Assembly (NCBI GenBank): GCA_964647545.1
Contig: CAZYHS010000002.1
Coordinates: forward strand, 34,695 to 98,694
Length of the DNA stretch: 64,000 nt
Direction: 5' to 3'
DNA from: an uncultured Pseudomonadota bacterium
Lineage (GTDB): Bacteria; UBA10199; GCA-002796325; 1-14-0-20-49-13
Every line of letters begins with the position of its first letter. The first letter of the stretch is position 1. The notes beneath the pieces were generated by a model. The model was not told the origin of the DNA, ran no database searches, and saw only the letters and a list, made by a program, of their open reading frames with translations. The translations under genes were made by a program, and so were the position numbers. Positions 4,449-61,893 of the stretch are shown here, piece by piece.

Positions 4449-5201
4449 TTAAACGGTCGGAGTTCTTACACGTCTAATTACCATTGCAACCACCGGCGCG
4501 ATTATCATGCATGCGATCGACCCGAGGACCTTTTCGCCTATCGAAAAGGTGATGACGGTTCCGAAAAGGGCGATGGAAATATAAAAGAGCGGGTTGAAGA
4601 AACGCAACACGCCGCTTAACTTCAGGTTCGGATACCTAAGCCATCTGTTTTCTATCAGTTGAAAAATAAAGATGACCGTGAATGACACAAGCAGCCAGCC
4701 CAGAAAATTTGAGATGGGGACGCCGAAGTAGAGCCCGCCGTTCGGGTAATAGTATATTTTCCCCAGAAACCATCTATCTCCAAGCTTTGTCACGGGGTCG
4801 ATTATCACGTCGAGCAGCATGACCAGCCATGCGCCGAAAAGAGCCGTACGAAAATTTGCAAAAGTGTAGATCTTCTTTTGCTCGGAAATTTCGGTGCCTG
4901 TTTCGCCCAGAATAAAACGCGCGGTCGTAAGCCCCGCGAAAATCATGAAAGGATAGGATAGCGAATCCCAAAAAGGGACCCCCATGACCATAGGTTCGCC
5001 TTGCATGTTTTCGTAAATGTAATGATAGATCCCGTACGGAAATCCGTTGTTGATCGACGAAACCTCGCTGGCCCAAGCGATAAAATAGCCGAGCACGAGC
5101 CAGATGAACGTCTTTTTCCATCCCCAATAGATGCGTCCCAAAAAGATGAATGCCGCGAGAAACGCAAAAACGTACGGGCGGTTGATAAGCATTGCCAGCA
5201 T
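4449..5201 (-). CDS. Polytopic integral membrane protein (6-7 predicted TM helices), family unassigned
   Basis: The 250-aa ORF is rich in W, F and Y hydrophobic segments and is convergent with spoVR. Its start is 3 nt from the stop of the downstream epimerase gene on the same strand. I could not assign the function from sequence. Confidence 0.6.
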   Translation of the reverse strand: MLAMLINRPYVFAFLAAFIFLGRIYWGWKKTFIWLVLGYFIAWASEVSSINNGFPYGIYHYIYENMQGEPMVMGVPFWDSLSYPFMIFAGLTTARFILGETGTEISEQKKIYTFANFRTALFGAWLVMLLDVIIDPVTKLGDRWFLGKIYYYPNGGLYFGVPISNFLGWLLVSFTVIFIFQLIENRWLRYPNLKLSGVLRFFNPLFYISIALFGTVITFSIGEKVLGSIACMIIAPVVAMVIRRVRTPTV

Positions 5202-7934: not shown

Positions 7935-8606
7935 ATGATTTTCATGAGCACACGAGAAGAACTTCTAAATATTTTCGAAGTGCTCTTAAAGCACTTTGGC
8001 CCGCAGAAATGGTGGCCCGCCGATTCGCCCTTCGAAGTGATGGTCGGCGCCATCCTTACGCAAAATACCAGCTGGTCAAACGTCGAAAGGGCGATAGCAA
8101 ATTTAAAGAACGCTAAGCTGCTTGACCCGCGAAAAATGCTTCGCCTTGACGCCGAGACGCTCGCAAACTTGATAAGACCCGCAGGCTATCCCAACGTAAA
8201 AACAAAAAGAATACAGAATTTTCTAAGATTTTTCGTCGAAGAGTTCAATGCGGACGTTGCGAAAATGGGGCGCGAGAGCGTCGATTCGCTTCGTGAAAAA
8301 CTCTTGAGCGTGAAAGGCGTGGGGCCGGAAACGGCCGATTCGATTTTGCTTTACGCGCTCGCAAAGCCCGTATTTGTTTGCGACGCCTACACCCACCGCA
8401 TTTTTTCTAGGCACGGCATGTTAGATGAAGGAGTCTCTTACGACGACGTGCGCGCTCTATTTATGGACAACCTCCCAAACGAAGAAAAGCTTTTCAACGA
8501 ATATCACGCGTTGATAGTTAAGACCGGCAAAGATTTTTGCCGGCCGCGTCCAAAGTGCGATTTGTGCCCGCTTGGGGCGCTGCTGAAAAAGCCTCTTAAG
8601 GTTTAA
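7935..8606 (+). CDS. HhH-GPD superfamily DNA glycosylase (endonuclease III-like) with a C-terminal 4-Cys cluster
   Basis: It has an HhH-GPD core (VGAILTQNTSWSNVERA ... GVGPETADSILLYAL) and a C-terminal C-x6-C-x2-C motif. Confidence 0.8.
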   Translation: MIFMSTREELLNIFEVLLKHFGPQKWWPADSPFEVMVGAILTQNTSWSNVERAIANLKNAKLLDPRKMLRLDAETLANLIRPAGYPNVKTKRIQNFLRFFVEEFNADVAKMGRESVDSLREKLLSVKGVGPETADSILLYALAKPVFVCDAYTHRIFSRHGMLDEGVSYDDVRALFMDNLPNEEKLFNEYHALIVKTGKDFCRPRPKCDLCPLGALLKKPLKV

Positions 8607-11181
8607 TTACCGAAAGAACGTAAGCCTTAAGGTCGAGATATCTCTTTGCCGTCGTCAAAACGTCCTGTCGGGTTACTTTTAATATCTTCTGCGGATACTG
8701 TTCCAGTTCGGCGATGCCCAGCCCGTAAAGTTCGTTGTAGGTGTAGCCGCTGGCCAGCGCGCTAACTCTCTGCTGGTCTAATTCGTAGGCTCCAACCATG
8801 TACTGTTTTGCGCGTTCGAGCTCTTCCGGCGAAACAAGCTCTTTGCTTATGAGCGACAGCTCGTTCTTGATGCCGTTAATGGCGGTCTCGGTTTTTGAGG
8901 GGTCGCAGCCGATGTAAACGGCGAAGTAGCCCTCTTCTGGGCCTACGTGCATGGTCGAGTTCACGGCATATGCGAGGCTCATCTTATCGCGCAGCGTCGA
9001 GAAGAGCCGGCCGCCTTGTCCGGCCAGAATGTGATTTAGCACGGCCAGTTTGTAATTGTCAGGCGAGCCGAGATGCGTCCCTAAAAATCCGAGAACGATG
9101 TGGGCTTGCTCTTTCCCCTTTTTTATTTTTTCGGCAGTAACGATATGTTTCGGCCGCACGATCTTTGCCTTTGGGGCTTTGAACCGGCCTATTTTTTTAA
9201 GGTCGATCCAGTCGTTCGCGAGCTTTTTTATCTCTTCGGGATTTACGTCTCCGACGACCGTGATGACAATGTCTGCCGGATTAAGATGGTTCTTCCAGAA
9301 TTTTCTGAGATCGTCGGCGGTCAGCGATGAAACCGTTTCTTTCGTTCCTGTGATGCGCATGCCGTAAGGGTGTTTGCCGTAAAGTGACTTCATGAACTGC
9401 GCAAAGGCCAGCCCCGTCAAATGGTCTTCCTGATTTTTTATCGTTTCGATCTGAAGGGCTTTTTCCTTTTCTACCTCTTTCTTATCGAACGACGGGGCGC
9501 ACATCACCTCGGCGAACATGCCGAAACCGTCGTAAAGTTTTTCACTTAAAAATTCGCAGCGCAGTCCGATAGCATTGCGTCCGCAGACCCCTTCGATCAT
9601 TCCGGCTATCGATTCGATCTTTTTGGCGACTTCGACAGCGTTGCGTTTTGCTGTTCCCTTTGTGATGCTTCTCGCGATGAGGTGTGAGATGCCGTTGTTC
9701 TTCGGAGTCTCGTGTCTTAGCCCGCCGTGCATCGCCGCGTAGATGGCGACAATCGGCAGGACGTGGTTTTCCCGAACGACAAGTTTAATGCCGTTCTTGA
9801 GGCGATAGAGTTTCGGCGCGCTCTTTTGCGATCTTTTCACGACGCTTGTTATTTTGTTCCTTGTGACCGCCGCCTCAAGGGCTTTCGCCGTCGGCTCTAC
9901 CTTCGCCTCTTTTGGGGAGAGGACTTCGAGCGTGCAGTTTTGAGGCGTCAGATATTTCATGGCAACGGCTCGTATCTCTTCGGCCGTCAGGTCGCCGAGT
10001 ACTTGAAAATAGCGCTTTTCAAATTCGTGGTCTCCGGCCGTCGCGGTGAAATAGGCGAATTTTGCCGACATGCCGCCGACCGTTTCCCGTTCGTAAACTT
10101 CGCTTGCGCGAATGTTTATCTTGGCGAGATTGAGCTCGTCGGCCGAAACGGTTTCGGTCGCAATTTTTTGTATCTCTTCCCAGATAGAATCGACAGCTTC
10201 GACAAGTTTTTCAGGTTGAGTGAGACCGCCTATCATGAACAGTCCCGGATATTTCGGCGTGAACGCGTAGCAATAGATCGTGTTCACGAGACGTTTTTTT
10301 TCCTTTACGATCTGCTCGAACCGGCTCGAATCGGCGCCGCCTAAAATGTGGGAAAGGACATCGAGCGCGGCTATGTCGGCGTGCGTAATTTCGGGGACGT
10401 GAAAGCCCATTATGAAATTGGTCGCCTGAATGTCCATCGAGCTTGTGTGAATCTTTAAGTTCGTTTGATGCGGCTCGGCCGGAACTACGACTGTTGGCGC
10501 GATGTTTTCGGGCTGTTTGAAACTTTCGAACGCTTTTGATATCTTTGAGAGCATGCTCTTGGTTTCAAAATCTCCGACCACGATGAACGTCATGTTCTTC
10601 GGCGTGTAGTGGCGCTTGTAGAACGAAAGGACCGTGCTTCGGTCGAACGATTTAACGACGTTTTCAAAACCTATGATGGGCCGGCCGTAAGTGTGCTTTG
10701 AAAATGCGTGCCTAAAAAGATTTTCACTGACGACGTGCCCGGGGTTGTCCTTACCTCTGCGGATCTCTTCGCAGATGACCTCAAGTTCGCGTTCCAGCTC
10801 CTGCTCGTCGAATAGCGGATTAATAACGGCGTCGGAAAGTATTTCGAGGCCTTTGTCCGAAAACCTGCTGGCCATGTTAACGTAAAAAACCGTCTGGTCG
10901 AAGCTTGTGTAGGCGTTTATGTCGCCGCCGGCGGCCTCTATTTCGCGGGCAACGGCGCTCACAGGACGCGTCGGCGTCCCTTTGAAGATCATGTGTTCGA
11001 TAACGTGACAAAGTCCGGCTTCGGCGTTGGTTTCGACGGCCGAACCGACGTTGACCAGAACGCTAAGACTGATGACGGGGGCGGAGTGATTTTCGCACAG
11101 CAGAACATCCATTCCGTTTGGGAGCGTGAATTTTGTAGTTTGCATGCACCGGTTTATAAGTGAGAGGGTGCCAAACGACAA
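8596..11181 (-). CDS. Tandem-domain M16 (pitrilysin/insulinase) family zinc peptidase
   Basis: The inverted zinc-binding motif HxxEH (CHVIEHMIFKGT) lies near the N-terminus. At 861 aa it is consistent with two fused M16 active/inactive halves. Confidence 0.85.
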   Translation of the reverse strand: MSFGTLSLINRCMQTTKFTLPNGMDVLLCENHSAPVISLSVLVNVGSAVETNAEAGLCHVIEHMIFKGTPTRPVSAVAREIEAAGGDINAYTSFDQTVFYVNMASRFSDKGLEILSDAVINPLFDEQELERELEVICEEIRRGKDNPGHVVSENLFRHAFSKHTYGRPIIGFENVVKSFDRSTVLSFYKRHYTPKNMTFIVVGDFETKSMLSKISKAFESFKQPENIAPTVVVPAEPHQTNLKIHTSSMDIQATNFIMGFHVPEITHADIAALDVLSHILGGADSSRFEQIVKEKKRLVNTIYCYAFTPKYPGLFMIGGLTQPEKLVEAVDSIWEEIQKIATETVSADELNLAKINIRASEVYERETVGGMSAKFAYFTATAGDHEFEKRYFQVLGDLTAEEIRAVAMKYLTPQNCTLEVLSPKEAKVEPTAKALEAAVTRNKITSVVKRSQKSAPKLYRLKNGIKLVVRENHVLPIVAIYAAMHGGLRHETPKNNGISHLIARSITKGTAKRNAVEVAKKIESIAGMIEGVCGRNAIGLRCEFLSEKLYDGFGMFAEVMCAPSFDKKEVEKEKALQIETIKNQEDHLTGLAFAQFMKSLYGKHPYGMRITGTKETVSSLTADDLRKFWKNHLNPADIVITVVGDVNPEEIKKLANDWIDLKKIGRFKAPKAKIVRPKHIVTAEKIKKGKEQAHIVLGFLGTHLGSPDNYKLAVLNHILAGQGGRLFSTLRDKMSLAYAVNSTMHVGPEEGYFAVYIGCDPSKTETAINGIKNELSLISKELVSPEELERAKQYMVGAYELDQQRVSALASGYTYNELYGLGIAELEQYPQKILKVTRQDVLTTAKRYLDLKAYVLSVIKP

Positions 11182-13897: not shown

Positions 13898-15193
13898 ATG
13901 GGTGCTAAACAAAAAATAGCCGGCGTCGGCATGAAATTCGTTAGAAAGGGGACGCTCGATCCGGCAAAGATGCTGAAGATAATGTCGCCGGTCGATAGAG
14001 TCCTGTCGCGAAATCTGTCAAAGACCGGCAGATACATTCGTCGGAATCAGCTCAAATACATCGCCGAAGCGCTAAAGGCCGAGAACCTGCGCGCATGGAC
14101 GAGCGTTCTTTTTCCGGCCGAAATTCTTCATCCGTTCGGGGTTTTACCTCTGAGTCTTGAGATACTTTCCGGAATTTTTTCAACTGTCGGGCTCTCGCGC
14201 GAGTTCCTCAATATTTCTCAGTCGTTCGGAGCGCCTCAGACGATATGCTCGTTTCACAGGCTGCTGGTGGGGCTTGCCAAGAGCCGATATTTCGCTCCGC
14301 CTAAATTTGTTGCGGCGACCTCGTTACTTTGTGACGGCAATCTTAAATCGTTTGCCGAAGCGGCCCGCGAAAGCGGCTCGGAGTTCGTTTATCTCGACAT
14401 CCCGTTCGAAGAAACAGCCCATTCGGTAAAATATTTGAAAGAGCAGCTTGAGGCCGCGGCCAGAAAGTTTGCCGAGGGGACGGGACAGAGATATTCGCTC
14501 GATGCGGTTAAACACTCGGTCACGCTGGCCGATAAGGGGCTCAAGCTCCTTTCGGACATCTGGAGCAAAAGGATCTCGGAACAGAACAATCTTTTTCGCG
14601 GCTACGAAATGGCGAACTTCTGTTTTCCGTCGCACTATCTTTTGGGGAGCCCGCTGCTTATCGACCTTTCTAACCGTGTTCTTAAAGGTCTTGCCGACAA
14701 AACCGACCGCAACAAAAAATACAAGACCCGCGCCCTTTCTAAAAAGGCAAAGCGCCTTATGTGGATGCACATCGTTCCTCAATACGACACGCGCATGTGG
14801 GATCTGCTCGACGACGGGGTTAATGCAAAGATCGTCTGTGAGGAGTACACGGCCCCGTATTGCTTTGGCTATGACGTGAACGACCCGTTCGGCTCGATAG
14901 CCCGCCGTTTGATACGGCATCCGTCTAACGGGCCGCTCTCCAGACGCGTCGAACACTCTCTTAGCGTGGCGAAAGATTTTAATGTTGACGGAGTCGTCCA
15001 TTATTCGAGCTGGGGATGTCATCAGGCGACGGGGAACGTCTCAATAATTGAAAAAGAATTTGAAAAGTGGGGGTTTAAATTTTTAAATCTCAACGGCGAC
15101 GCGGTTGACGCCAACAATACGACATTTGAGCAGCATCGCACACGCATTGAGGCCTTTCTCGAAGACATGTTCAGCACCGCGTCTTTGAAATGA
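13898..15193 (+). CDS. 2-hydroxyacyl-CoA dehydratase family subunit (HgdA/HgdB-like partner)
   Basis: The C-terminal region (GVVHYSSWGCHQATGNVSIIEKEFEKWGFKFLNLNGDAVD ... HRTRIEAF) matches the conserved C-terminus of the 2-hydroxyglutaryl-CoA dehydratase family. It starts 9 nt after the upstream activase-fusion gene. Confidence 0.7.
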   Translation: MGAKQKIAGVGMKFVRKGTLDPAKMLKIMSPVDRVLSRNLSKTGRYIRRNQLKYIAEALKAENLRAWTSVLFPAEILHPFGVLPLSLEILSGIFSTVGLSREFLNISQSFGAPQTICSFHRLLVGLAKSRYFAPPKFVAATSLLCDGNLKSFAEAARESGSEFVYLDIPFEETAHSVKYLKEQLEAAARKFAEGTGQRYSLDAVKHSVTLADKGLKLLSDIWSKRISEQNNLFRGYEMANFCFPSHYLLGSPLLIDLSNRVLKGLADKTDRNKKYKTRALSKKAKRLMWMHIVPQYDTRMWDLLDDGVNAKIVCEEYTAPYCFGYDVNDPFGSIARRLIRHPSNGPLSRRVEHSLSVAKDFNVDGVVHYSSWGCHQATGNVSIIEKEFEKWGFKFLNLNGDAVDANNTTFEQHRTRIEAFLEDMFSTASLK

Positions 15194-15240
15194 TAAACTG
15201 GGGGTTTTAGGCTCTAAAGGCCGGAATGACATCGTAAACA

Positions 15241-15345
15241 GTTAATTCGGTTAGGTCCGTTATTTCCGTTAACGGACTAAACGGAAATATCCGAACTAAC
15301 GGAATTAACCGAAATAACCGACGCAACTGGCCTAACCGAATCAAC
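15241..15345. repeat. Intergenic repeat element built from degenerate CCGTTAA / CGGTTAG / TAACCGA-type units (copy 1 of a dispersed family)
   Basis: It reads ...ggtccgttatttccgttaacggactaaacggaaatatccgaactaacggaattaaccgaaataaccgacgcaactggcctaaccgaatc... It has internal hairpins (tatttccgtt / aacggaaata). Motifs such as ccgttatttccgtt, gaattaaccga and ctaaccga recur at 26791-26883 and 38515-38596. Confidence 0.7.
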
Positions 15346-15346
15346 A

Positions 15347-15490
15347 AATTCAGGCGACTTATGTTTCAAGGGCCTCTCGCAGATCGATGCATCAAATGGC
15401 CTTGGTGCCGCATCGATCGAGAGTGGAGGTGCGTTTGCAGGCCGCAACCTGCAAACGACACAGTCCCTTGAAACATAAGTTGCCTGAAAG
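15347..15490 (+). other. Highly structured ~140-nt element: a 26-bp terminal inverted repeat enclosing two internal hairpins. It is a candidate cis-regulatory RNA or a miniature inverted-repeat element upstream of ogt.
   Basis: The outer arms are ttcaggcgacttatgtttcaaggg (15347-15372) and cccttgaaacataagttgcctgaa (15465-15490), which are complementary with one G-U position. Inner hairpin 1 spans 15374-15423 (ctctcg-ca-gatcgatgc ... gcatcgatcgagag). Inner hairpin 2 spans 15432-15457 (cgtttgcagg ccgcaa cctgcaaacg). It ends 45 nt before the ogt start. Confidence 0.6.
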
Positions 15491-15534
15491 TGTGTTCGGG
15501 AGATCCCCGCTTAATATCGCGGGAATGACAATGA

Positions 15535-15828
15535 ATGTTTAAAAATATTCAAATCGATTTTTCAAAGCTCGGCGGCACGCCTTTTCAAAACCGCGTCTGG
15601 AAAGAAATTCACAAGGTAAAATTCGGCAGAACTCTCACTTACAAAGAGCTCGCGCGTCGCGTCGGCCGGCCAAAAGCTTACAGAGCCACAGCTTCCGCGT
15701 GCGGAAAAAATCCGCTCCCGCTAATTATTCCGTGCCACAGAATTGTCGCGTCGAACGGCATCGGCGGGTTTTCGCTTGGCGTCGGACTGAAGCGGTGGCT
15801 TCTTTCGATCGAAGGCCTTTCCTACTGA
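15535..15828 (+). CDS. ogt: Short methylated-DNA-protein-cysteine methyltransferase (Ogt/MGMT C-terminal DNA-binding/active-site domain only)
   Basis: It has the active-site PCHR motif (IIPCHRIVASNG) and a helix-turn-helix (LTYKELARRVGRPKAYRA). At 97 aa it lacks the usual N-terminal domain. Confidence 0.8.
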   Translation: MFKNIQIDFSKLGGTPFQNRVWKEIHKVKFGRTLTYKELARRVGRPKAYRATASACGKNPLPLIIPCHRIVASNGIGGFSLGVGLKRWLLSIEGLSY

Positions 15829-15843
15829 AAATTCTTTTAACTT

Positions 15844-17118
15844 TTAATCGGCTTTTTTAGGCTCCTCTTTGAGAAAGCGAATGGCCGTAAAAAATCCCAG
15901 CAGCGCTAGCAGAGCGGTTGGATAGAAAGCAAAAGTGTAGCAGCCAAAGACGTCTTTTGCCTGACCGGAAATTATTCCTCCGACAATCGCGCCGATCCCG
16001 TAGGCCAGAAAGAGCGTGCCGTAGTTTCTTGCGTGATTTGCAACTCCGAAATAGACGGCGGTTGAAGTGGGGGCTATCGCAAGCCAGCCTCCTAGGCACA
16101 GCCAAAATCCAGAAAATGCCGCAACGTAAAGGGTGACGCTCTCAGGTTTGGCAAAAAGCATCAGGACCGACATTGCAAAAATGACGGCGAAATTTATTGC
16201 CGCCGCAGTGCGTGGAGATGTCCTGTCGGTGATGGCTCCGAAGAGTGGGCGTCCGACAGCGTTGAAAAGGGCGAAAATCCCTACAAGTCCGGCGGCTGTC
16301 GTGCCGGTCATTTTGATGACCTCGCTCCCGACAGGTTTTGAAATGCCTATCGCCATAAGGCCGGCGATGCTGCCGGCCAGAAAACAGACAAACAGACCCC
16401 AAAACTTTCTTGTTCTTAGCATTTCAGGGACAGAGAAATTTTTTTCCGTCGCTTGGACTCTTTTTGGCCGCCAGCCCGAAGGCTTCCAGTTTTTTGGCGG
16501 CAGGGTGAATAGCATGGAAAGCAAAACAAGCGCCCCCGTGAAGGCCAGTCCGAAGATTATAAATGTGTTCGGCAGCGAGATCGCCAGCTCTTCGGGGAGG
16601 AGTTCGTGAATATCTCCGATAAGTATGATGGCTATCTTGCCGGTTAAGAACGCCGATCCGCCGAAGCCGGCCAGCATTAACCCTGTGGCAAGCCCTTGCC
16701 GGTCCGGAAACCATCGGGCGCCGACGGCAATCGGACACGGATAGACCAGCCCGACTCCCGAGCCGGCAATAACACCGTAAGTCAAAACCAGCATCCACAC
16801 GTTGGACGCAAATCCCGAAAGCATCCAGCCAAGACCAACCAGCACGCTCCCCGCGAGGGCCATTTGTCGCACTCCGAACTTCTCTATGAAAAAACCGCCG
16901 ACAAACATCGTCACCGAAAAACAAAGTATGAATGTCATGAACGGAAAATTGCCGTGAGAAGCCGACGCTTCGAAAAGTTTTTCGACGGCCGGTTTAAAAA
17001 TGCTGTAGGTGTAAACGCTACCGAGGCAGAGATTCATTGCAAAGCCAGCAGCCACAAGCAGCCATCGGGAATTTTCCGGCTTGAGTCCGAACAGACGTTC
17101 GCTCGTCAGGTTTTCCAT
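15844..17118 (-). CDS. MFS transporter (oxalate/formate antiporter-like subfamily)
   Basis: It is 424 aa with 12 predicted TM helices and an MFS-type two-half layout with a central cytoplasmic loop (PPKNWKPSGWRPKRVQATEK). Confidence 0.8.
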   Translation of the reverse strand: MENLTSERLFGLKPENSRWLLVAAGFAMNLCLGSVYTYSIFKPAVEKLFEASASHGNFPFMTFILCFSVTMFVGGFFIEKFGVRQMALAGSVLVGLGWMLSGFASNVWMLVLTYGVIAGSGVGLVYPCPIAVGARWFPDRQGLATGLMLAGFGGSAFLTGKIAIILIGDIHELLPEELAISLPNTFIIFGLAFTGALVLLSMLFTLPPKNWKPSGWRPKRVQATEKNFSVPEMLRTRKFWGLFVCFLAGSIAGLMAIGISKPVGSEVIKMTGTTAAGLVGIFALFNAVGRPLFGAITDRTSPRTAAAINFAVIFAMSVLMLFAKPESVTLYVAAFSGFWLCLGGWLAIAPTSTAVYFGVANHARNYGTLFLAYGIGAIVGGIISGQAKDVFGCYTFAFYPTALLALLGFFTAIRFLKEEPKKAD

Positions 17119-17650: not shown

Positions 17651-19219
17651 ATGGGTGAACCGAAAGTTAAAGAGTCAATTTTTACAAAATGGGTAGTTAT
17701 CGATTCTGCCGTTGAAAAGTGTAATGCTGAAGATACGCCTGAAGAAAAGGCAGAATGTTTTAAAGGCGCTTACTTCTTGCAGGTCAATGCTGCTAAGGAA
17801 GACTTTTCCCCTTACGCAGGTGCGGTGGGGGTAAAAGGTACTTTTGTTAGAGGTATCGGTGATCTTTGTTCTAATGTGTTCTTAAATGATGGCCCCGGAG
17901 TCAGCGATTTTTTCACAAATGAAAATGATTTTCGGGATCAGGTAGAAGCCATGCAGGCTTGCATGAATAGCATTAATGGTCTTGTCGACAGTTTTCAAAA
18001 AATTTCCCCGAACTGGAGAACAGACATTAGAGACGCAGCATCTGCTGAAAGAAAAAATACAGAGCCCCCAGCGGTTAATCTTCCCGCGTCCGCCGCTCAG
18101 ATATATATAGATAAGTACCGTGATCATTATGTTAGAGCGCTGATTAAGTGGGCGGTAGAAAACCAGCACAGGTTTACTGATGAGCAATTAAAAACGATTG
18201 CTCTTGCAATACATAATATTAAAGCTTCTAAAGAAGGGGCTGCTAGGCTGAAAGCAGAATATGAGGATATCGCCGATGTTGATAAAGAGGCTCGTCGTGC
18301 TGAAAAAGTAACAGTGAAAGGTGTGGTCGGTGTTGATAATAGATCGGGGTCGGCATTTAAAAGCGGAGTAAAAAAGATTTCCGCTGATGGCGACTCTATT
18401 TTAGATGTTAAAGTAGGTCTTGGTTTTAACTCACTTGATAAAAATAATCCAGCAGTTGCCGAGATGGTGAAGCCTGGTGGTAGTAGTATGTCAGGTTTTT
18501 CGTTTAATGGCGTTTCATTTGGGACCAGATTATTCTCTAAAGACTTCTTTACTCTAAAAACTGAAATGGCATTTGAGCTCAAAAGTGTTTCAATTATTCC
18601 AAAAGTGGAGTTTGCCGTTACAGAAAATGTGAAATTGGTTGCAGAAAATACTTTCAAAAATTCAAGCTATGAAAGCATGGCAATGAACTACACTCCGAAG
18701 GTTGGCGTTGAATTTGAAAGTAAGGAAGGTTGGTTGGCAGAAGCGGGCGGTCATGTTGGTGCAACGATTCCAAATGATGGTGGGAATTCTATTGCCTTTG
18801 ATGCCAATGCAAAAGTCCGTTGGTTTGATGGGTTCACAACGGGCTTGGAGTTTACCTATGGCGATCCGATTGGTCGAGCCGGCTATGCTATTGGGGCAGT
18901 AGCCGATGATTATAACACAAATGTTAAGCTTGTTAACGAATATGAATTTGAAAGTCCCCTCCTCGGACGTTTTAAGAATGTTGGTTTAACAGCTGAGTGG
19001 GCATATTTTGATAGATCAGTTGTGGCTGGTGGCGATGGCGGAGAGCTAGAGTATTCACTCAATATGTTTTCTACATATGCATCGGTTGCCCTTATTTTTA
19101 ATGACTTTTTAACTACAAAATTTAACGTGGGTTACATAGGTCTTTTCCCAAAGCTTGATTCGGCAGGAGATCCGATAAATGCTTTATATTTAGGTGCTGA
19201 GTTTGGGCTTGGGCTTTGA
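17651..19219 (+). CDS. Orphan 522-aa protein on a low-GC island: a helical N-terminal half, a beta-strand-rich C-terminal half with alternating hydrophobic residues (beta-barrel-like), and no N-terminal signal peptide
   Basis: It has a strong RBS. Base composition is visibly AT-richer than the flanks (low-40s % GC by eye versus mid/high-50s). The C-terminus is ...YLGAEFGLGL. I do not recognise the family. Confidence 0.7.
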   Translation: MGEPKVKESIFTKWVVIDSAVEKCNAEDTPEEKAECFKGAYFLQVNAAKEDFSPYAGAVGVKGTFVRGIGDLCSNVFLNDGPGVSDFFTNENDFRDQVEAMQACMNSINGLVDSFQKISPNWRTDIRDAASAERKNTEPPAVNLPASAAQIYIDKYRDHYVRALIKWAVENQHRFTDEQLKTIALAIHNIKASKEGAARLKAEYEDIADVDKEARRAEKVTVKGVVGVDNRSGSAFKSGVKKISADGDSILDVKVGLGFNSLDKNNPAVAEMVKPGGSSMSGFSFNGVSFGTRLFSKDFFTLKTEMAFELKSVSIIPKVEFAVTENVKLVAENTFKNSSYESMAMNYTPKVGVEFESKEGWLAEAGGHVGATIPNDGGNSIAFDANAKVRWFDGFTTGLEFTYGDPIGRAGYAIGAVADDYNTNVKLVNEYEFESPLLGRFKNVGLTAEWAYFDRSVVAGGDGGELEYSLNMFSTYASVALIFNDFLTTKFNVGYIGLFPKLDSAGDPINALYLGAEFGLGL

Positions 19220-26428: not shown

Positions 26429-26491
26429 AAACGGTTAGGTCGGTTTAGTCGGTTAATCCTGTTAGTTCCGTTAACTGACTAAACCGTTTTT
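26426..26491. repeat. Hairpin/terminator-like element made of the CGGTTAG / CCGTTAA repeat units (copy 2 of the dispersed family). It may be a bidirectional terminator.
   Basis: It reads aaaaacggttaggtcggtttagtcggttaa-[tcctgttagttccg]-ttaactgactaaaccgttttt. It has tandem 9-mers cggttaggt / cggtttagt / cggttaatc, a long imperfect stem and flanking A- and T-runs. Confidence 0.6.
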
Positions 26492-26605
26492 TAAGTCACC
26501 CCCGAGGTCTTAATCGCCTGTTCGCCGCGTAGTATTGGCGGAGGGATCTCGCTTACATCTCTTGCGTCTTTGCGAGGAGCGCAAGGCGCGACGAAGCAAT
26601 CCCCC

Positions 26606-26646
26606 GTACGTAGCGGATACGTAGCGGTAACGTACGTAGCGGTAAC
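26606..26646. repeat. Three tandem copies of a ~13-bp unit (gta)cgtagcggtaac
   Basis: The copies are gtacgtagcggat / acgtagcggtaac / gtacgtagcggtaac. They lie inside the 459-bp intergenic region. Confidence 0.6.
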
Positions 26647-26733
26647 GGAGCAGCGCTGATAATTAATTAGTAAAATTAGCTGGTTAGACGAGGGTACATC
26701 TAAATTATTCGGCCCGTAGCGATCAGTAATTTT

Positions 26734-26761
26734 TTGCAATTGTGTTACGTGCAATTATAAC
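26734..26761 (+). promoter_or_regulatory. Sigma70-like promoter candidate (-35 TTGCAA, 16-nt spacer, -10 TATAAC) pointing into repeat copy 3. It could drive a small RNA.
   Basis: ttgcaa is at 26734-26739 and tataac at 26756-26761. No protein-coding gene lies downstream on this strand for 1.4 kb. A T-run is at 26883-26887. Confidence 0.3.
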
Positions 26762-26790
26762 TGAGTGAAAATAAAGGGTATTGTTCCGCG

Positions 26791-26883
26791 TTGCTCCGTT
26801 ACCGTGATCCGGTTATTTCCGTTTAGTCCGTTAACAGAATTAACCGACCTAACCGACAAAACCGAATTAACTGAACTAACTGA
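26791..26883. repeat. Intergenic repeat element, copy 3 of the CCGTTAA / TAACCGA family
   Basis: It reads ...ccggttatttccgtttagtccgttaacagaattaaccgacctaaccgacaaaaccgaattaactgaactaactga. It shares ccgttatttccgtt, gaattaaccga and ctaaccga with copy 1, and taactgaact with copy 4. Confidence 0.7.
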
Positions 26884-26887
26884 TTTT

Positions 26888-37275: not shown

Positions 37276-37313
37276 AAAACCCCGCCAGCCTTACGGTTAG
37301 CGGGGTTTTTGTT
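37276..37313. terminator. Bidirectional rho-independent terminator between smc (+) and the convergent small gene (-)
   Basis: It reads aaaaaaCCCCGC-cagccttacggtta-GCGGGGtttttgtttg. A GC-rich 6-bp stem is flanked by an A-run and a T-run. Confidence 0.7.
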
Positions 37314-38514: not shown

Positions 38515-38596
38515 AATTAACCCGGTTTTGTCTGTTAGTTCTGTTAATTCCGTTATTTCAGTTCCAGCAGTGGATAACTGAACTGATCATTCGTTA
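38515..38596. repeat. Intergenic repeat element, copy 4 of the family, filling exactly the 82-bp gap between two minus-strand genes
   Basis: It reads ataattaacccggttttgtctgttagttctgttaattccgttatttcagttccagcagtggataactgaactgatcattcg. It shares ttccgttatttc and taactgaact with the other copies. Confidence 0.65.
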
Positions 38597-61821: not shown

Positions 61822-61893
61822 CTACAGGTTTAACGTTGTTTAAGATTGTTTAGGTGGTTTAAGCTCGTTTAAATCGCTTAAATCGTTTAAGAG
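61822..61893. repeat. Tandem array of about seven ~10-bp GTTTAAnnnn units filling the intergenic gap between convergent genes
   Basis: The units are gtttaacgtt / gtttaagatt / gtttaggtg / gtttaagctc / gtttaaatcgc / ttaaatc / gtttaagagg. Confidence 0.7.

What the first reader, a model, noticed from the sequence alone, without database searches (positions are those of the whole stretch)
15347..15490. 140-nt multi-hairpin element closed by a 26-bp terminal inverted repeat, immediately upstream of a short ogt
The outer arms pair over 26 bp with one G-U position. Inside are a ~50-nt bulged hairpin and a perfect 10-bp hairpin. The 3' arm ends 45 nt before the ogt ATG, and a further small hairpin overlaps its RBS region. 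The element is either a structured cis-regulatory leader or small RNA, for example controlling alkylation-repair expression, or a miniature inverted-repeat transposable element. It follows a copy of the dispersed repeat.
Basis: seen in the sequence. Interest (0 to 1): 0.5.

Follow-up and report, generated by a model that had tools for sequence, protein, structure and literature searches.

The report
Orphan long-stem palindromic intergenic element
A 150-base stretch just upstream of a DNA-repair gene folds into by far the most stable hairpin structure in this 64-kb window, but it is a lineage-specific orphan that looks like a palindromic intergenic repeat module read through in the mRNA, not a conserved regulator of the repair gene.

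Summary
Window 15344-15493 forms a three-way structure. A 24-bp closing helix with one G-U encloses a 54-nt bulged hairpin and a hairpin with a perfect 10-bp stem. It is the strongest fold in the window (z about -7; next best about -3.9).

It matches no Rfam family, tRNA, phage or plasmid, and its arm has no true match in the public collections scanned. The nearest ogt homologue (69% identity) has no such element upstream.

A sister strain (98-99% identical) carries a second, 270-nt rod-like element (E2) in tandem at this locus. E2 shares the terminal motif TCTCCCGAACAC..TCAGG.AA.T.AT.TTTC. All differences between the two closing helices keep pairing. Transition-type mismatches are G-U on the + strand 7 to 1. 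Each element follows a 9-nt-periodic palindromic array and precedes GGGAGAT-N17-GGAATGACA.

There is no target-site duplication at the arms, no further copy in about 79 kb, and no promoter or terminator.

Best reading (0.45): a low-copy, modular palindromic element resembling Correia (CREE), ERIC or BIME elements, co-transcribed between the dehydratase operon and ogt, acting if at all as an RNase III or exonuclease-barrier hairpin. A new small-RNA family is not excluded. Moderate-to-low interest.

The parts
15344..15493 (+). E1, the whole palindromic element: a three-way junction with a closing helix and two internal hairpins
   Evidence: MFE -84.2 kcal/mol on + and -81.8 on -. Strongest fold in the window (z -7.15).
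15349..15372 (+). 5' arm of the 24-bp closing helix (TTCAGGCGACTTATGTTTCAAGGG)
   Evidence: G15356 pairs with U15481 as G-U on the + strand; the same position is an A-C mismatch on the - strand.
15465..15488 (+). 3' arm of the closing helix (CCCTTGAAACATAAGTTGCCTGAA)
15373..15426 (+). Internal hairpin 1, bulged, with a perfect 9-bp core (GATCGATGC 15382-15390 with GCATCGATC 15410-15418)
   Evidence: (pair I10).
15429..15461 (+). Internal hairpin 2, with a perfect 10-bp stem (15432-15441 with 15448-15457) and a 6-nt loop
   Evidence: (pair I9).
15492..15503 (+). 3' flank motif GTGTTCGGGAGA. It is the exact reverse complement of the 5' end of the sister-strain element E2 (TCTCCCGAACAC). It has no partner in this window.
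15498..15530 (+). Direct-repeat unit, copy next to ogt: GGGAGAT, then 17 nt holding a 5-bp hairpin (15506-15523), then GGAATGACA. It overlaps a mini-ORF (ATG 15525 to TAA 15542) that overlaps the ogt ATG at 15535.
   Evidence: GGAATGACA occurs only at 15223 and 15522 in the window.
15200..15231 (+). Direct-repeat unit, copy after the dehydratase stop codon: GGGGGTT, then 16 nt holding a 5-bp hairpin (TTTAG/CTAAA), then GGAATGACA. The stretch 15205-15270 is duplicated in sister strain L001 on either side of the extra element E2.
15241..15345 (.). 9-nt-periodic palindromic array: GTTAnnnCC units, then their complement. This is the dispersed repeat that precedes E1.
   Evidence: An 18-nt (two-unit) indel separates the window from L001.
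15535..15828 (+). Short ogt (97 aa, DNA_binding_1 domain, PCHR active site), the gene downstream of the element
13898..15193 (+). HGD-D family dehydratase subunit, the gene upstream. No terminator-like site lies between it and ogt.

Best explanation
E1 is one module of a small, lineage-specific family of palindromic intergenic elements. It resembles Correia/CREE, ERIC and BIME-type mosaic repeats. It is neither a riboswitch nor a classical transposing MITE.

The locus is built from units of the form [9-nt-periodic palindromic array][long-stem element E][GGGAGAT-N17-GGAATGACA]. The window has one unit. A sister strain has two, with elements E2 and E1. Units are gained or lost by recombination between the repeated flanks (shown by the strain comparison), not by cut-and-paste with a short target duplication.

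No promoter or terminator separates the dehydratase operon from ogt. E1 is therefore most likely transcribed on the + strand as part of a read-through mRNA (inferred). It would fold into a three-way hairpin closed by a 24-bp helix. This fold is predicted by energy calculation. The inference that pairing matters on the + strand comes from the G-U bias and the compensated changes.

A perfect duplex of two helical turns is a classical RNase III substrate and a 3'-exonuclease barrier. If the element has an effect, it most likely uncouples the stability of the upstream mRNA from that of the ogt mRNA (inferred by analogy, not shown).
For: - Extreme fold: z -9.1, the strongest in 64 kb.
- A second element, E2 (L001 2421-2688, 268 nt, rod-like, z about -8), sits in tandem in a 98-99% identical strain and is absent from the window. 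The indel is bounded by a 66-nt direct repeat.
- E1 and E2 share terminal sequence: an exact 12-mer (TCTCCCGAACAC), then TCAGG.AA.T.AT.TTTC.
- Across 20 aligned helix positions there are 11 identical pairs, 3 double compensatory changes, 4 one-sided changes through G-U, 1 co-deleted pair and 0 broken pairs.
- Transition-type mismatches are G-U on the + strand 7 times (6 in E2, 1 in E1). On the - strand fold there is one comparable long-range G-U (in E2); E1's only other G-U on that strand is a local hairpin pair. E2 folds 13-14 kcal/mol better on +.
- Both elements follow a palindromic 9-mer array and precede GGGAGAT-N17-GGAATGACA.
- No + strand promoter or terminator lies between the dehydratase stop and ogt.
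- The helices are near perfect (24, 10 and 9 bp). This is typical of young palindromic repeats and unusual for riboswitches or ribozymes (general knowledge).
- MITE and CREE elements are described as folding into long RNA stem-loops, and CREE elements as bound or cut by RNase III (PMC3184786, PMC2649163).
Against: - Only two family members are known, both at this one locus. No further copy was found in about 79 kb of this lineage.
- No target-site duplication lies at the arm boundaries.
- No transposase or IS with matching ends was seen.
- Transcription, RNase III cleavage and any effect on ogt are untested.
- The element and ogt show zero SNPs between strains over about 600 nt, where about 6 would be expected. 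This could mean constraint or a recent sweep.
- The G-U bias (about p = 0.04) could also come from strand-biased C-to-T mutation.
Confidence: 0.45

Rival explanations
1. E1 and E2 are genes, or processed products, of an undescribed family of highly base-paired small RNAs of about 150-270 nt. The family would be defined by a conserved terminal helix. The RNAs would be encoded in tandem and made on the + strand, for example as protein-binding or RNase III-processed RNAs.
For: - + strand G-U bias and compensated helix changes between E1 and E2.
- Very strong folds.
- Tandem paralogues with copy number that varies between strains, as in several known sRNA families (general knowledge).
- E2's terminal helix is followed by UUUU.
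- No SNPs in E1 between strains.
Against: - No sigma-70-like promoter on the + strand upstream of either element, and no intrinsic terminator after E1. The genome does use canonical terminators.
- No Rfam match.
- No homologue outside this strain cluster.
- The interiors of E1 and E2 cannot be aligned and differ twofold in length.
Confidence: 0.2
2. E1 is a cis-regulatory leader specific to ogt, such as a riboswitch, thermometer or protein-binding 5' UTR. It would control alkylation-repair expression.
For: - It ends 46 nt before the ogt ATG.
- A small hairpin and a mini-ORF overlap the start region.
- A weak 9-nt complementarity exists between the 3' arm and the start region (pairs I12 and I13).
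Against: - It is absent upstream of the nearest ogt homologue, where ogt overlaps the preceding gene.
- No Rfam family matches.
- A 24-bp perfect helix leaves no energetically plausible alternative fold.
- The related element E2 precedes another module, not a gene.
- The same flanking motif also follows the dehydratase stop codon.
Confidence: 0.07
3. E1 is a DNA-level site. It could be an invertible segment bounded by inverted repeats, a recombination or cassette site, or a cluster of palindromic operators (CGTTTGCAGG-N6-CCTGCAAACG; GATCGATGC-N19-GCATCGATC).
For: - Long inverted repeats flank 86 bp next to a gene start.
- The internal palindromes are perfect.
- Modules are separated by a repeated 33-nt unit, a cassette-like layout.
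Against: - The orientation is the same in all three assemblies.
- No recombinase gene is among the called neighbours.
- No promoter-like site lies inside the element.
- The arms do not carry the integron core sites RYYYAAC and GTTRRRY at their borders (read from the sequence).
- The strand-biased G-U pattern points to a single-strand fold, not to duplex recognition.
Confidence: 0.1
4. E1 is a neutral by-product of local quasi-palindrome formation by template switching, with no function and no mobility.
For: - It is an orphan with a single locus.
- The helices are near perfect, which suggests recent origin.
- It lies next to unstable tandem arrays that change unit number between strains.
Against: - Two elements with a shared terminal motif have diverged, yet every helix position stays paired.
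- Mismatches are restricted to G-U on one strand.
- These patterns argue for maintenance of pairing over time.
Confidence: 0.1

Closest known systems
Correia repeat-enclosed elements (CREE) of Neisseria
   Same: - Size of about 105-157 bp, with 26-bp terminal inverted repeats enclosing a core.
- Often sit just 5' of genes.
- Are part of the mRNA, form a hairpin, and are bound or cut by RNase III.
- Show presence or absence differences between strains (PMC2649163).
   Different: - CREE have 100-250 copies per genome, and their Correia repeat is reported only from Neisseria.
- From my memory of the family, not checked here, they also have a TA target duplication.
- E1 has no flanking duplication and no other copy in about 79 kb. 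Its host is an uncultured lineage whose MurA is closest to deltaproteobacterial MAGs.
- A loose resemblance of the E1 left border to the Correia repeat is recalled from memory only and was not tested.
Bacterial MITEs in general (ERIC/IRU, RUP, Nezha, TIMEs)
   Same: - Under 400 bp, with terminal inverted repeats and no transposase.
- Intergenic, and fold into long stable RNA stem-loops (PMC3184786).
   Different: - The defining target-site duplications and multi-copy dispersal were not found.
- The strain indel that carries E2 is bounded by a 66-nt repeat and does not coincide with E2's own ends. This indicates recombination, not transposition.
REP clusters / bacterial interspersed mosaic elements (BIMEs) and pneumococcal BOX elements
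   Same: - A mosaic, modular build made of palindromic units plus other motifs.
- Located after stop codons and between convergent genes.
- Variable module number.
- Proposed roles in mRNA stabilisation (PMC3184786).
   Different: - REP units are 20-40 bp, G+C-rich, and present in hundreds of copies.
- Here the dispersed unit is a 9-nt-periodic array, and E1 and E2 are much longer and low-copy.
RNase III processing stems in polycistronic transcripts (rRNA precursor stems, phage T7 early mRNA sites)
   Same: A duplex of 20 bp or more, formed by sequences flanking an internal segment and located between cistrons (general knowledge).
   Different: Those are conserved, experimentally mapped sites. 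No cleavage or transcript data exist here.
Riboswitches and structured 5' leaders
   Same: Position immediately upstream of a gene, with a multi-stem junction.
   Different: - No conservation across orthologues and no Rfam hit.
- Helices are far longer and more perfect than in ligand-binding RNAs.
- No expression platform.

Membership tests
MITE | Terminal inverted repeats enclosing a short core without a transposase | tested here: met
   The arms are 24-32 nt and the element is 150 nt. The only ORFs inside are implausible, and Pfam found nothing for the 51-aa one.
MITE | Short direct target-site duplication flanking the inverted repeats | tested here: not met
   The flanks at either candidate border (15344/15493 or 15349/15488) are not direct repeats; they continue the palindrome. 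A 9-bp direct repeat, GGAATGACA, flanks the larger block of array + E1 + small hairpin. That block has no inverted ends.
MITE | Multiple dispersed copies in the genome | tested here: inconclusive
   There is one copy in 64 kb and none in about 15 kb of extra sequence from the same lineage. The public collections scanned do not contain this genome, because the locus itself was not retrieved. The rest of the genome could not be searched.
MITE | Presence or absence polymorphism with an empty site | tested here: inconclusive
   E1 is present in all three assemblies. The related E2 is present in L001 and absent in the window, but the junctions are a 66-nt repeat and not E2's ends.
Correia/CREE | The 26-bp Correia repeat sequence as inverted ends, and a Neisseria host | not tested
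   The paper read reports the 26-bp repeat only in Neisseria. MurA of this organism is closest to deltaproteobacterial MAGs at 60-71% identity. No alignment to a Correia sequence was run. The TA target duplication I associate with this family is from memory and was not checked.
REP/BIME | 20-40 bp G+C-rich palindromic units in high copy number, clustered in mosaics | tested here: not met
   E1 is 150 nt, 52% G+C and low-copy. The neighbouring 9-mer arrays are dispersed (at least five in the window) but are A+T-rich and periodic, not REP-like.
Riboswitch / cis-regulatory leader of ogt | Conserved upstream of orthologous genes, with covariation | tested here: not met
   The nearest Ogt relative (69%) has no intergenic element. 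No closer relatives of Ogt or the neighbouring MFS gene exist in the protein database. No Rfam family matches.
Riboswitch / cis-regulatory leader of ogt | An expression platform: a terminator, or an RBS-sequestering alternative fold | tested here: not met
   No terminator-like site lies between 15194 and 15534. In the predicted minimum-energy fold the closing helix is intact and the start region folds separately.
Independent sRNA gene | Its own promoter and terminator, and a discrete transcript | tested here: inconclusive
   Consensus scans find no + strand promoter or terminator. The scans cover only sigma-70-type sites, and no transcript data are available.
Integron attC site | RYYYAAC and GTTRRRY core sites at the hairpin borders, with an integrase nearby | tested here: not met
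   The borders read ATCAAC|AAATTCAGG and CCTGAAAGTGT|GTTCGGG and do not fit the core consensus. No integrase is among the called neighbours.
Invertible promoter (inverton) | Both orientations observed, a promoter inside, and a recombinase nearby | tested here: not met
   The orientation is the same in three assemblies. No promoter-like site lies inside. Read-level data could not be tested.

The most novel reading that the evidence does not exclude
E1 and E2 are the first two members of an undescribed class of tandemly encoded, almost fully base-paired RNAs. The class would have a conserved terminal helix (UCAGG.AA.U.AU.UUUC and its complement) maintained by compensatory evolution on the + strand. 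Alternatively, the repeated unit [9-mer palindromic array][E][GGGAGAT-N17-GGAATGACA] is a new kind of modular cassette that is added and removed at a fixed chromosomal site.
Probability: 0.15. Interest if true: 0.6.

Novelty: new variant of a known kind. Interest (0 to 1): 0.3.

Why it matters
If the element is simply a palindromic repeat module, it adds a low-copy, recombination-driven variant to the catalogue of CREE-, ERIC- and BIME-like elements. It comes from a poorly sampled uncultured lineage. It would also be a natural case in which a 24-bp duplex sits between an operon and a DNA-repair gene, which is a testable RNase III or mRNA-stability switch.

If it is instead a dedicated RNA family, the paired comparison of E1 and E2 already gives a helix with compensatory support. 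That helix could seed a covariance model once more genomes of this lineage appear.

Either way, it is not evidence for a riboswitch-type control of ogt.

Tried and rejected
- **Rfam:** gathering thresholds on the whole window, and E-value 10 on 15100-15700 and on the L001 locus. Only a tRNA elsewhere and chance miRNA-like hits on the 9-mer array.
- **ARAGORN on the region:** nothing.
- **Exact 20-mer of the arm (GGCRACTTATGTTTCAAGGG):** 0 in genome contigs, 0 in viral contigs, and 1 in metagenome contigs. That one lies inside a groEL-like coding sequence and is a chance match.
- **blastn of E1 and E2 against phages and plasmids:** no match for E1 in either collection. E2 was run against plasmids only and gave a single 28-nt match at E = 0.3.
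- **Synteny search with the dehydratase:** relatives at 66% and 58% have different downstream genes.
- **Ogt and MFS homologue searches for near relatives, to allow covariation analysis:** nothing between 100% and 65-69%. R-scape-type analysis is therefore impossible at present.
- **Extra sequence of the same lineage (L007, L010-L013), scanned for the family motifs and for strong folds:** none found.
- **Look-ups meant to recover other strains' versions of the locus or of the 26.5-kb mosaic region:** only short contigs that break at the 9-mer arrays.
- **Coding readings:**
  - A 51-aa + strand ORF has no Pfam hit.
  - A 56-aa - strand ORF is implausible by eye.
  - A 36-aa Cys-rich ORF starts inside the 5' arm.
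  - A 54-aa - strand ORF in E2 has no Shine-Dalgarno sequence and was not called by the source annotation.
  - All four were judged spurious.
- **Ideas rejected on inspection:**
  - Hammerhead ribozyme (no CUGAUGA core).
  - Retron msr/msd (no reverse transcriptase).
  - Tn3-type TIME (the ends do not start with GGGG; candidate 5-bp duplications are CTTTT against ATTTT).
  - attC site.
  - sigma-54 or ECF promoter readings of the flanking motif.
- **A - strand promoter-like site** (ATGTCA-17-TAAAAT) in the L001 copy of the flanking repeat was noted. The number of such sites is no more than the shuffles give.

Full report
**What is there**

The intergenic spacer between an HGD-D family dehydratase gene (13898-15193, +) and a short ogt (15535-15828, +; 97 aa, DNA_binding_1 domain only) is 341 nt long. 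It holds, in order:
- a short unit GGGGGTT-N16-GGAATGACA (15200-15231);
- a palindromic array of 9-nt-periodic units (15241-15345);
- the element in question, E1 (15344-15493);
- the motif GTGTTCGGGAGA (15492-15503);
- a second unit GGGAGAT-N17-GGAATGACA (15498-15530), which runs into the ogt start.

E1 folds into a three-way junction:
- a contiguous 24-bp closing helix (15349-15372 with 15465-15488) with a single G-U (G15356 with U15481);
- a 3-bp outer extension;
- a 54-nt bulged hairpin (15373-15426);
- a 33-nt hairpin with a perfect 10-bp stem (15429-15461).

**Is it more than chance?**

Yes. The 201-nt region folds at -97.5 kcal/mol against -56.7 +/- 4.5 for dinucleotide shuffles (z -9.1). 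In a GC-corrected 160-nt sliding fold of the whole window it is the extreme outlier on both strands (z -7.15 and -6.6). The next unrelated region reaches -3.9. The sequence is identical in three independent assemblies (the window and two JGI contigs, L001 and L002), so it is not an assembly artefact.

**What it is not**

- No Rfam family matches, even at E = 10, and ARAGORN finds no tRNA or tmRNA.
- There is no sigma-70-like promoter on the + strand and no terminator-like site between the dehydratase stop and ogt. The genome does use canonical intrinsic terminators elsewhere.
- The arm sequence occurs nowhere else in the window.
- E1 has no blastn match in phage or plasmid collections.
- The arm 20-mer is absent from the genome and viral collections. 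Its only metagenome match lies inside a groEL-like gene and is chance. These collections did not return the locus itself, so they do not contain this organism. They say nothing about copy number in its own genome.
- The lineage is poorly sampled.
  - MurA places it nearest to deltaproteobacterial MAGs at 60-71% identity.
  - Only strain-level relatives (97%) and one 91% relative are present.
  - For Ogt and the adjacent MFS gene, nothing lies between 100% and 65-69% identity.
- In the closest Ogt relative, ogt overlaps the preceding gene and there is no leader element.
- Relatives of the dehydratase have different downstream genes.

A conserved ogt regulator is therefore not supported, and formal covariation analysis cannot be done now. 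Short Ogt proteins of 91-101 aa are common, so the short ogt is unremarkable.

**The informative comparison**

Contig L001 is 98-99% identical to the window in the flanking genes. It carries an extra 376 nt (310 nt unique plus the second repeat copy) in the same spacer. The 66-nt stretch corresponding to window 15205-15270 is present twice in L001. Between the copies lie another 9-mer array half and a second long-stem element, E2 (L001 2421-2688). E2 is a 268-nt rod with about 100 base pairs; the enclosing region folds with z about -8.

E1 and E2 cannot be aligned in their interiors, but they share their ends:
- E2 begins TCTCCCGAACAC-C-TCAGGTAATTAATTTTCGA.
- The reverse complement of the E1 3' side reads TCTCCCGAACAC-ACTT-TCAGGCAACTTATGTTTCAA.
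- This is an exact 12-mer followed by TCAGG.AA.T.AT.TTTC.

I aligned the two closing helices on TCAGG. The 20 positions give 11 identical pairs, 3 double compensatory changes (C-G to U-A, U-A to A-U, A-U to G-C), 4 one-sided changes through G-U, 1 co-deleted pair and no broken pair.

Transition-type mismatches are G-U on the + strand in 7 cases (6 in E2, 1 in E1). On the - strand fold there is one comparable long-range G-U, in E2; E1's only other G-U on that strand is a local hairpin pair. E2 folds 13-14 kcal/mol better on the + strand, and E1 about 2.4 kcal/mol better.

Both elements are preceded by a palindromic 9-mer array and followed by GGGAGAT-N17-GGAATGACA. The N17 part holds a 5-bp hairpin whose sequence differs between copies. 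GGAATGACA occurs only twice in the window, on either side of array + E1.

**Interpretation**

The locus is a mosaic of repeated units [array][E][GGGAGAT-N17-GGAATGACA]. Unit number differs between strains through recombination between repeated flanks. The indel boundaries are the 66-nt repeat and not E2's own ends, which argues against cut-and-paste insertion with a short target duplication.

- No direct repeat flanks E1's arms; the flanks extend the palindrome.
- No other family member was found in about 79 kb of this lineage (window plus L007 and L010).
- The elements therefore share the architecture of MITE, CREE, ERIC or BIME-type repeats: terminal inverted repeats, no transposase, intergenic position, long RNA stem-loops and strain polymorphism (PMC3184786, PMC2649163).
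- They fail or cannot be shown to meet the two defining MITE features, target duplication and multi-copy dispersal.
- The G-U strand bias and the fully compensated helix point to selection on pairing in a + strand single strand.
- The + strand is the transcribed sense of both neighbouring genes, and no promoter or terminator intervenes. The simplest reading is that E1 is part of a read-through dehydratase-ogt transcript.

**Mechanism proposed (inferred, not shown)**

The 24-bp duplex spans two helical turns. That is the classical RNase III substrate length and a strong 3'-exonuclease barrier. Cleavage or blocking there would leave the upstream mRNA with a stable 3' stem and give ogt a separate, probably less stable, message. 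I give this reading a confidence of 0.45.

**Rivals**

- A new family of small structured RNAs made from these elements (0.2).
- A DNA-level site such as an inverton, operator cluster or cassette junction (0.1).
- A neutral quasi-palindrome (0.1).
- An ogt-specific leader (0.07).

**Novelty and interest**

The structure is real and striking, but it is an orphan without comparative or expression data. Its most likely identity is a variant of a well-known kind of intergenic palindromic element. The E1/E2 comparison is a modest positive result. It would become interesting if more genomes show a conserved RNA family or a cassette-like mechanism. Interest is 0.3.

Noticed in passing
window 15241-15345, 26429-26495, 26805-26885, 38531-38590, 61828-61892; L010 ~8590-8660; L012 ~4490-4600: Palindromic arrays of 9-nt-periodic units (GTTAnnnCC, then GGnnnTAAC; or GTTTAAnnn) sit directly after stop codons and between convergent genes. 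The array between murA and the aldehyde dehydrogenase gene is kept at the same place in a relative with 91% MurA identity, but with a different unit number and sequence. Unit number differs by two units between strains at 15280-15297. Short-read contigs break at these arrays. I could not link them to a known repeat family.
   Followed up: partly
window 26496-26804: Between two 9-mer arrays in a convergent-gene spacer lie tandem TACGTAGCGG(TAACG) repeats (26607-26647) and a hairpin with 20-nt arms (26640-26659 with 26785-26804) around an A+T-rich 125-nt core. This is another mosaic of array plus long-stem segment. It has no clear sequence relation to E1 or E2.
   Followed up: partly
L001 2379-2688 (sister strain; inserted relative to window 15270/15271): A 310-nt extra segment carries the rod-like element E2, bounded by a 66-nt direct repeat. 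E2's terminal helix ends in GGGAGA followed by UUUU. A sigma-70-like site (ATGTCA-17-TAAAAT) on the - strand points into it.
   Followed up: yes
window 15525-15542: A mini-ORF (ATG ACA ATG AAT GTT TAA) overlaps the ogt start codon at 15535. The same ATGACA start, preceded by GGA, recurs in the upstream repeat copy (15226-15237: ATG ACA TCG TAA). Translational coupling or re-initiation at ogt is possible.
   Followed up: no
window 17651-19219 and L001/L002 beyond the position matching window 17658: Identity between the window and the sister-strain contigs ends abruptly at the start of a 522-aa ORF with no Pfam hit on record in the sister-strain copy. That copy is 542 aa in L002. This looks like a strain-variable gene.
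   Followed up: no
L010 12973-16083 versus L011 12527-15973: Two contigs that encode the same MurA protein (97% identical to the window's) differ here. One has a 1036-aa ORF without Pfam hits. The other has several small ORFs.
   Followed up: no
window 15324-15920: There are no SNPs between the window and L001/L002 across E1 and ogt (about 600 nt). The flanking genes differ at about 1-1.3%. This may reflect constraint or a recent recombination tract.
   Followed up: partly
window 37279-37312: A canonical intrinsic terminator (AAAAAACCCCGC...GCGGGGTTTTTG) follows smc. It shows that this organism uses standard terminators, unlike the structure at E1.
   Followed up: no
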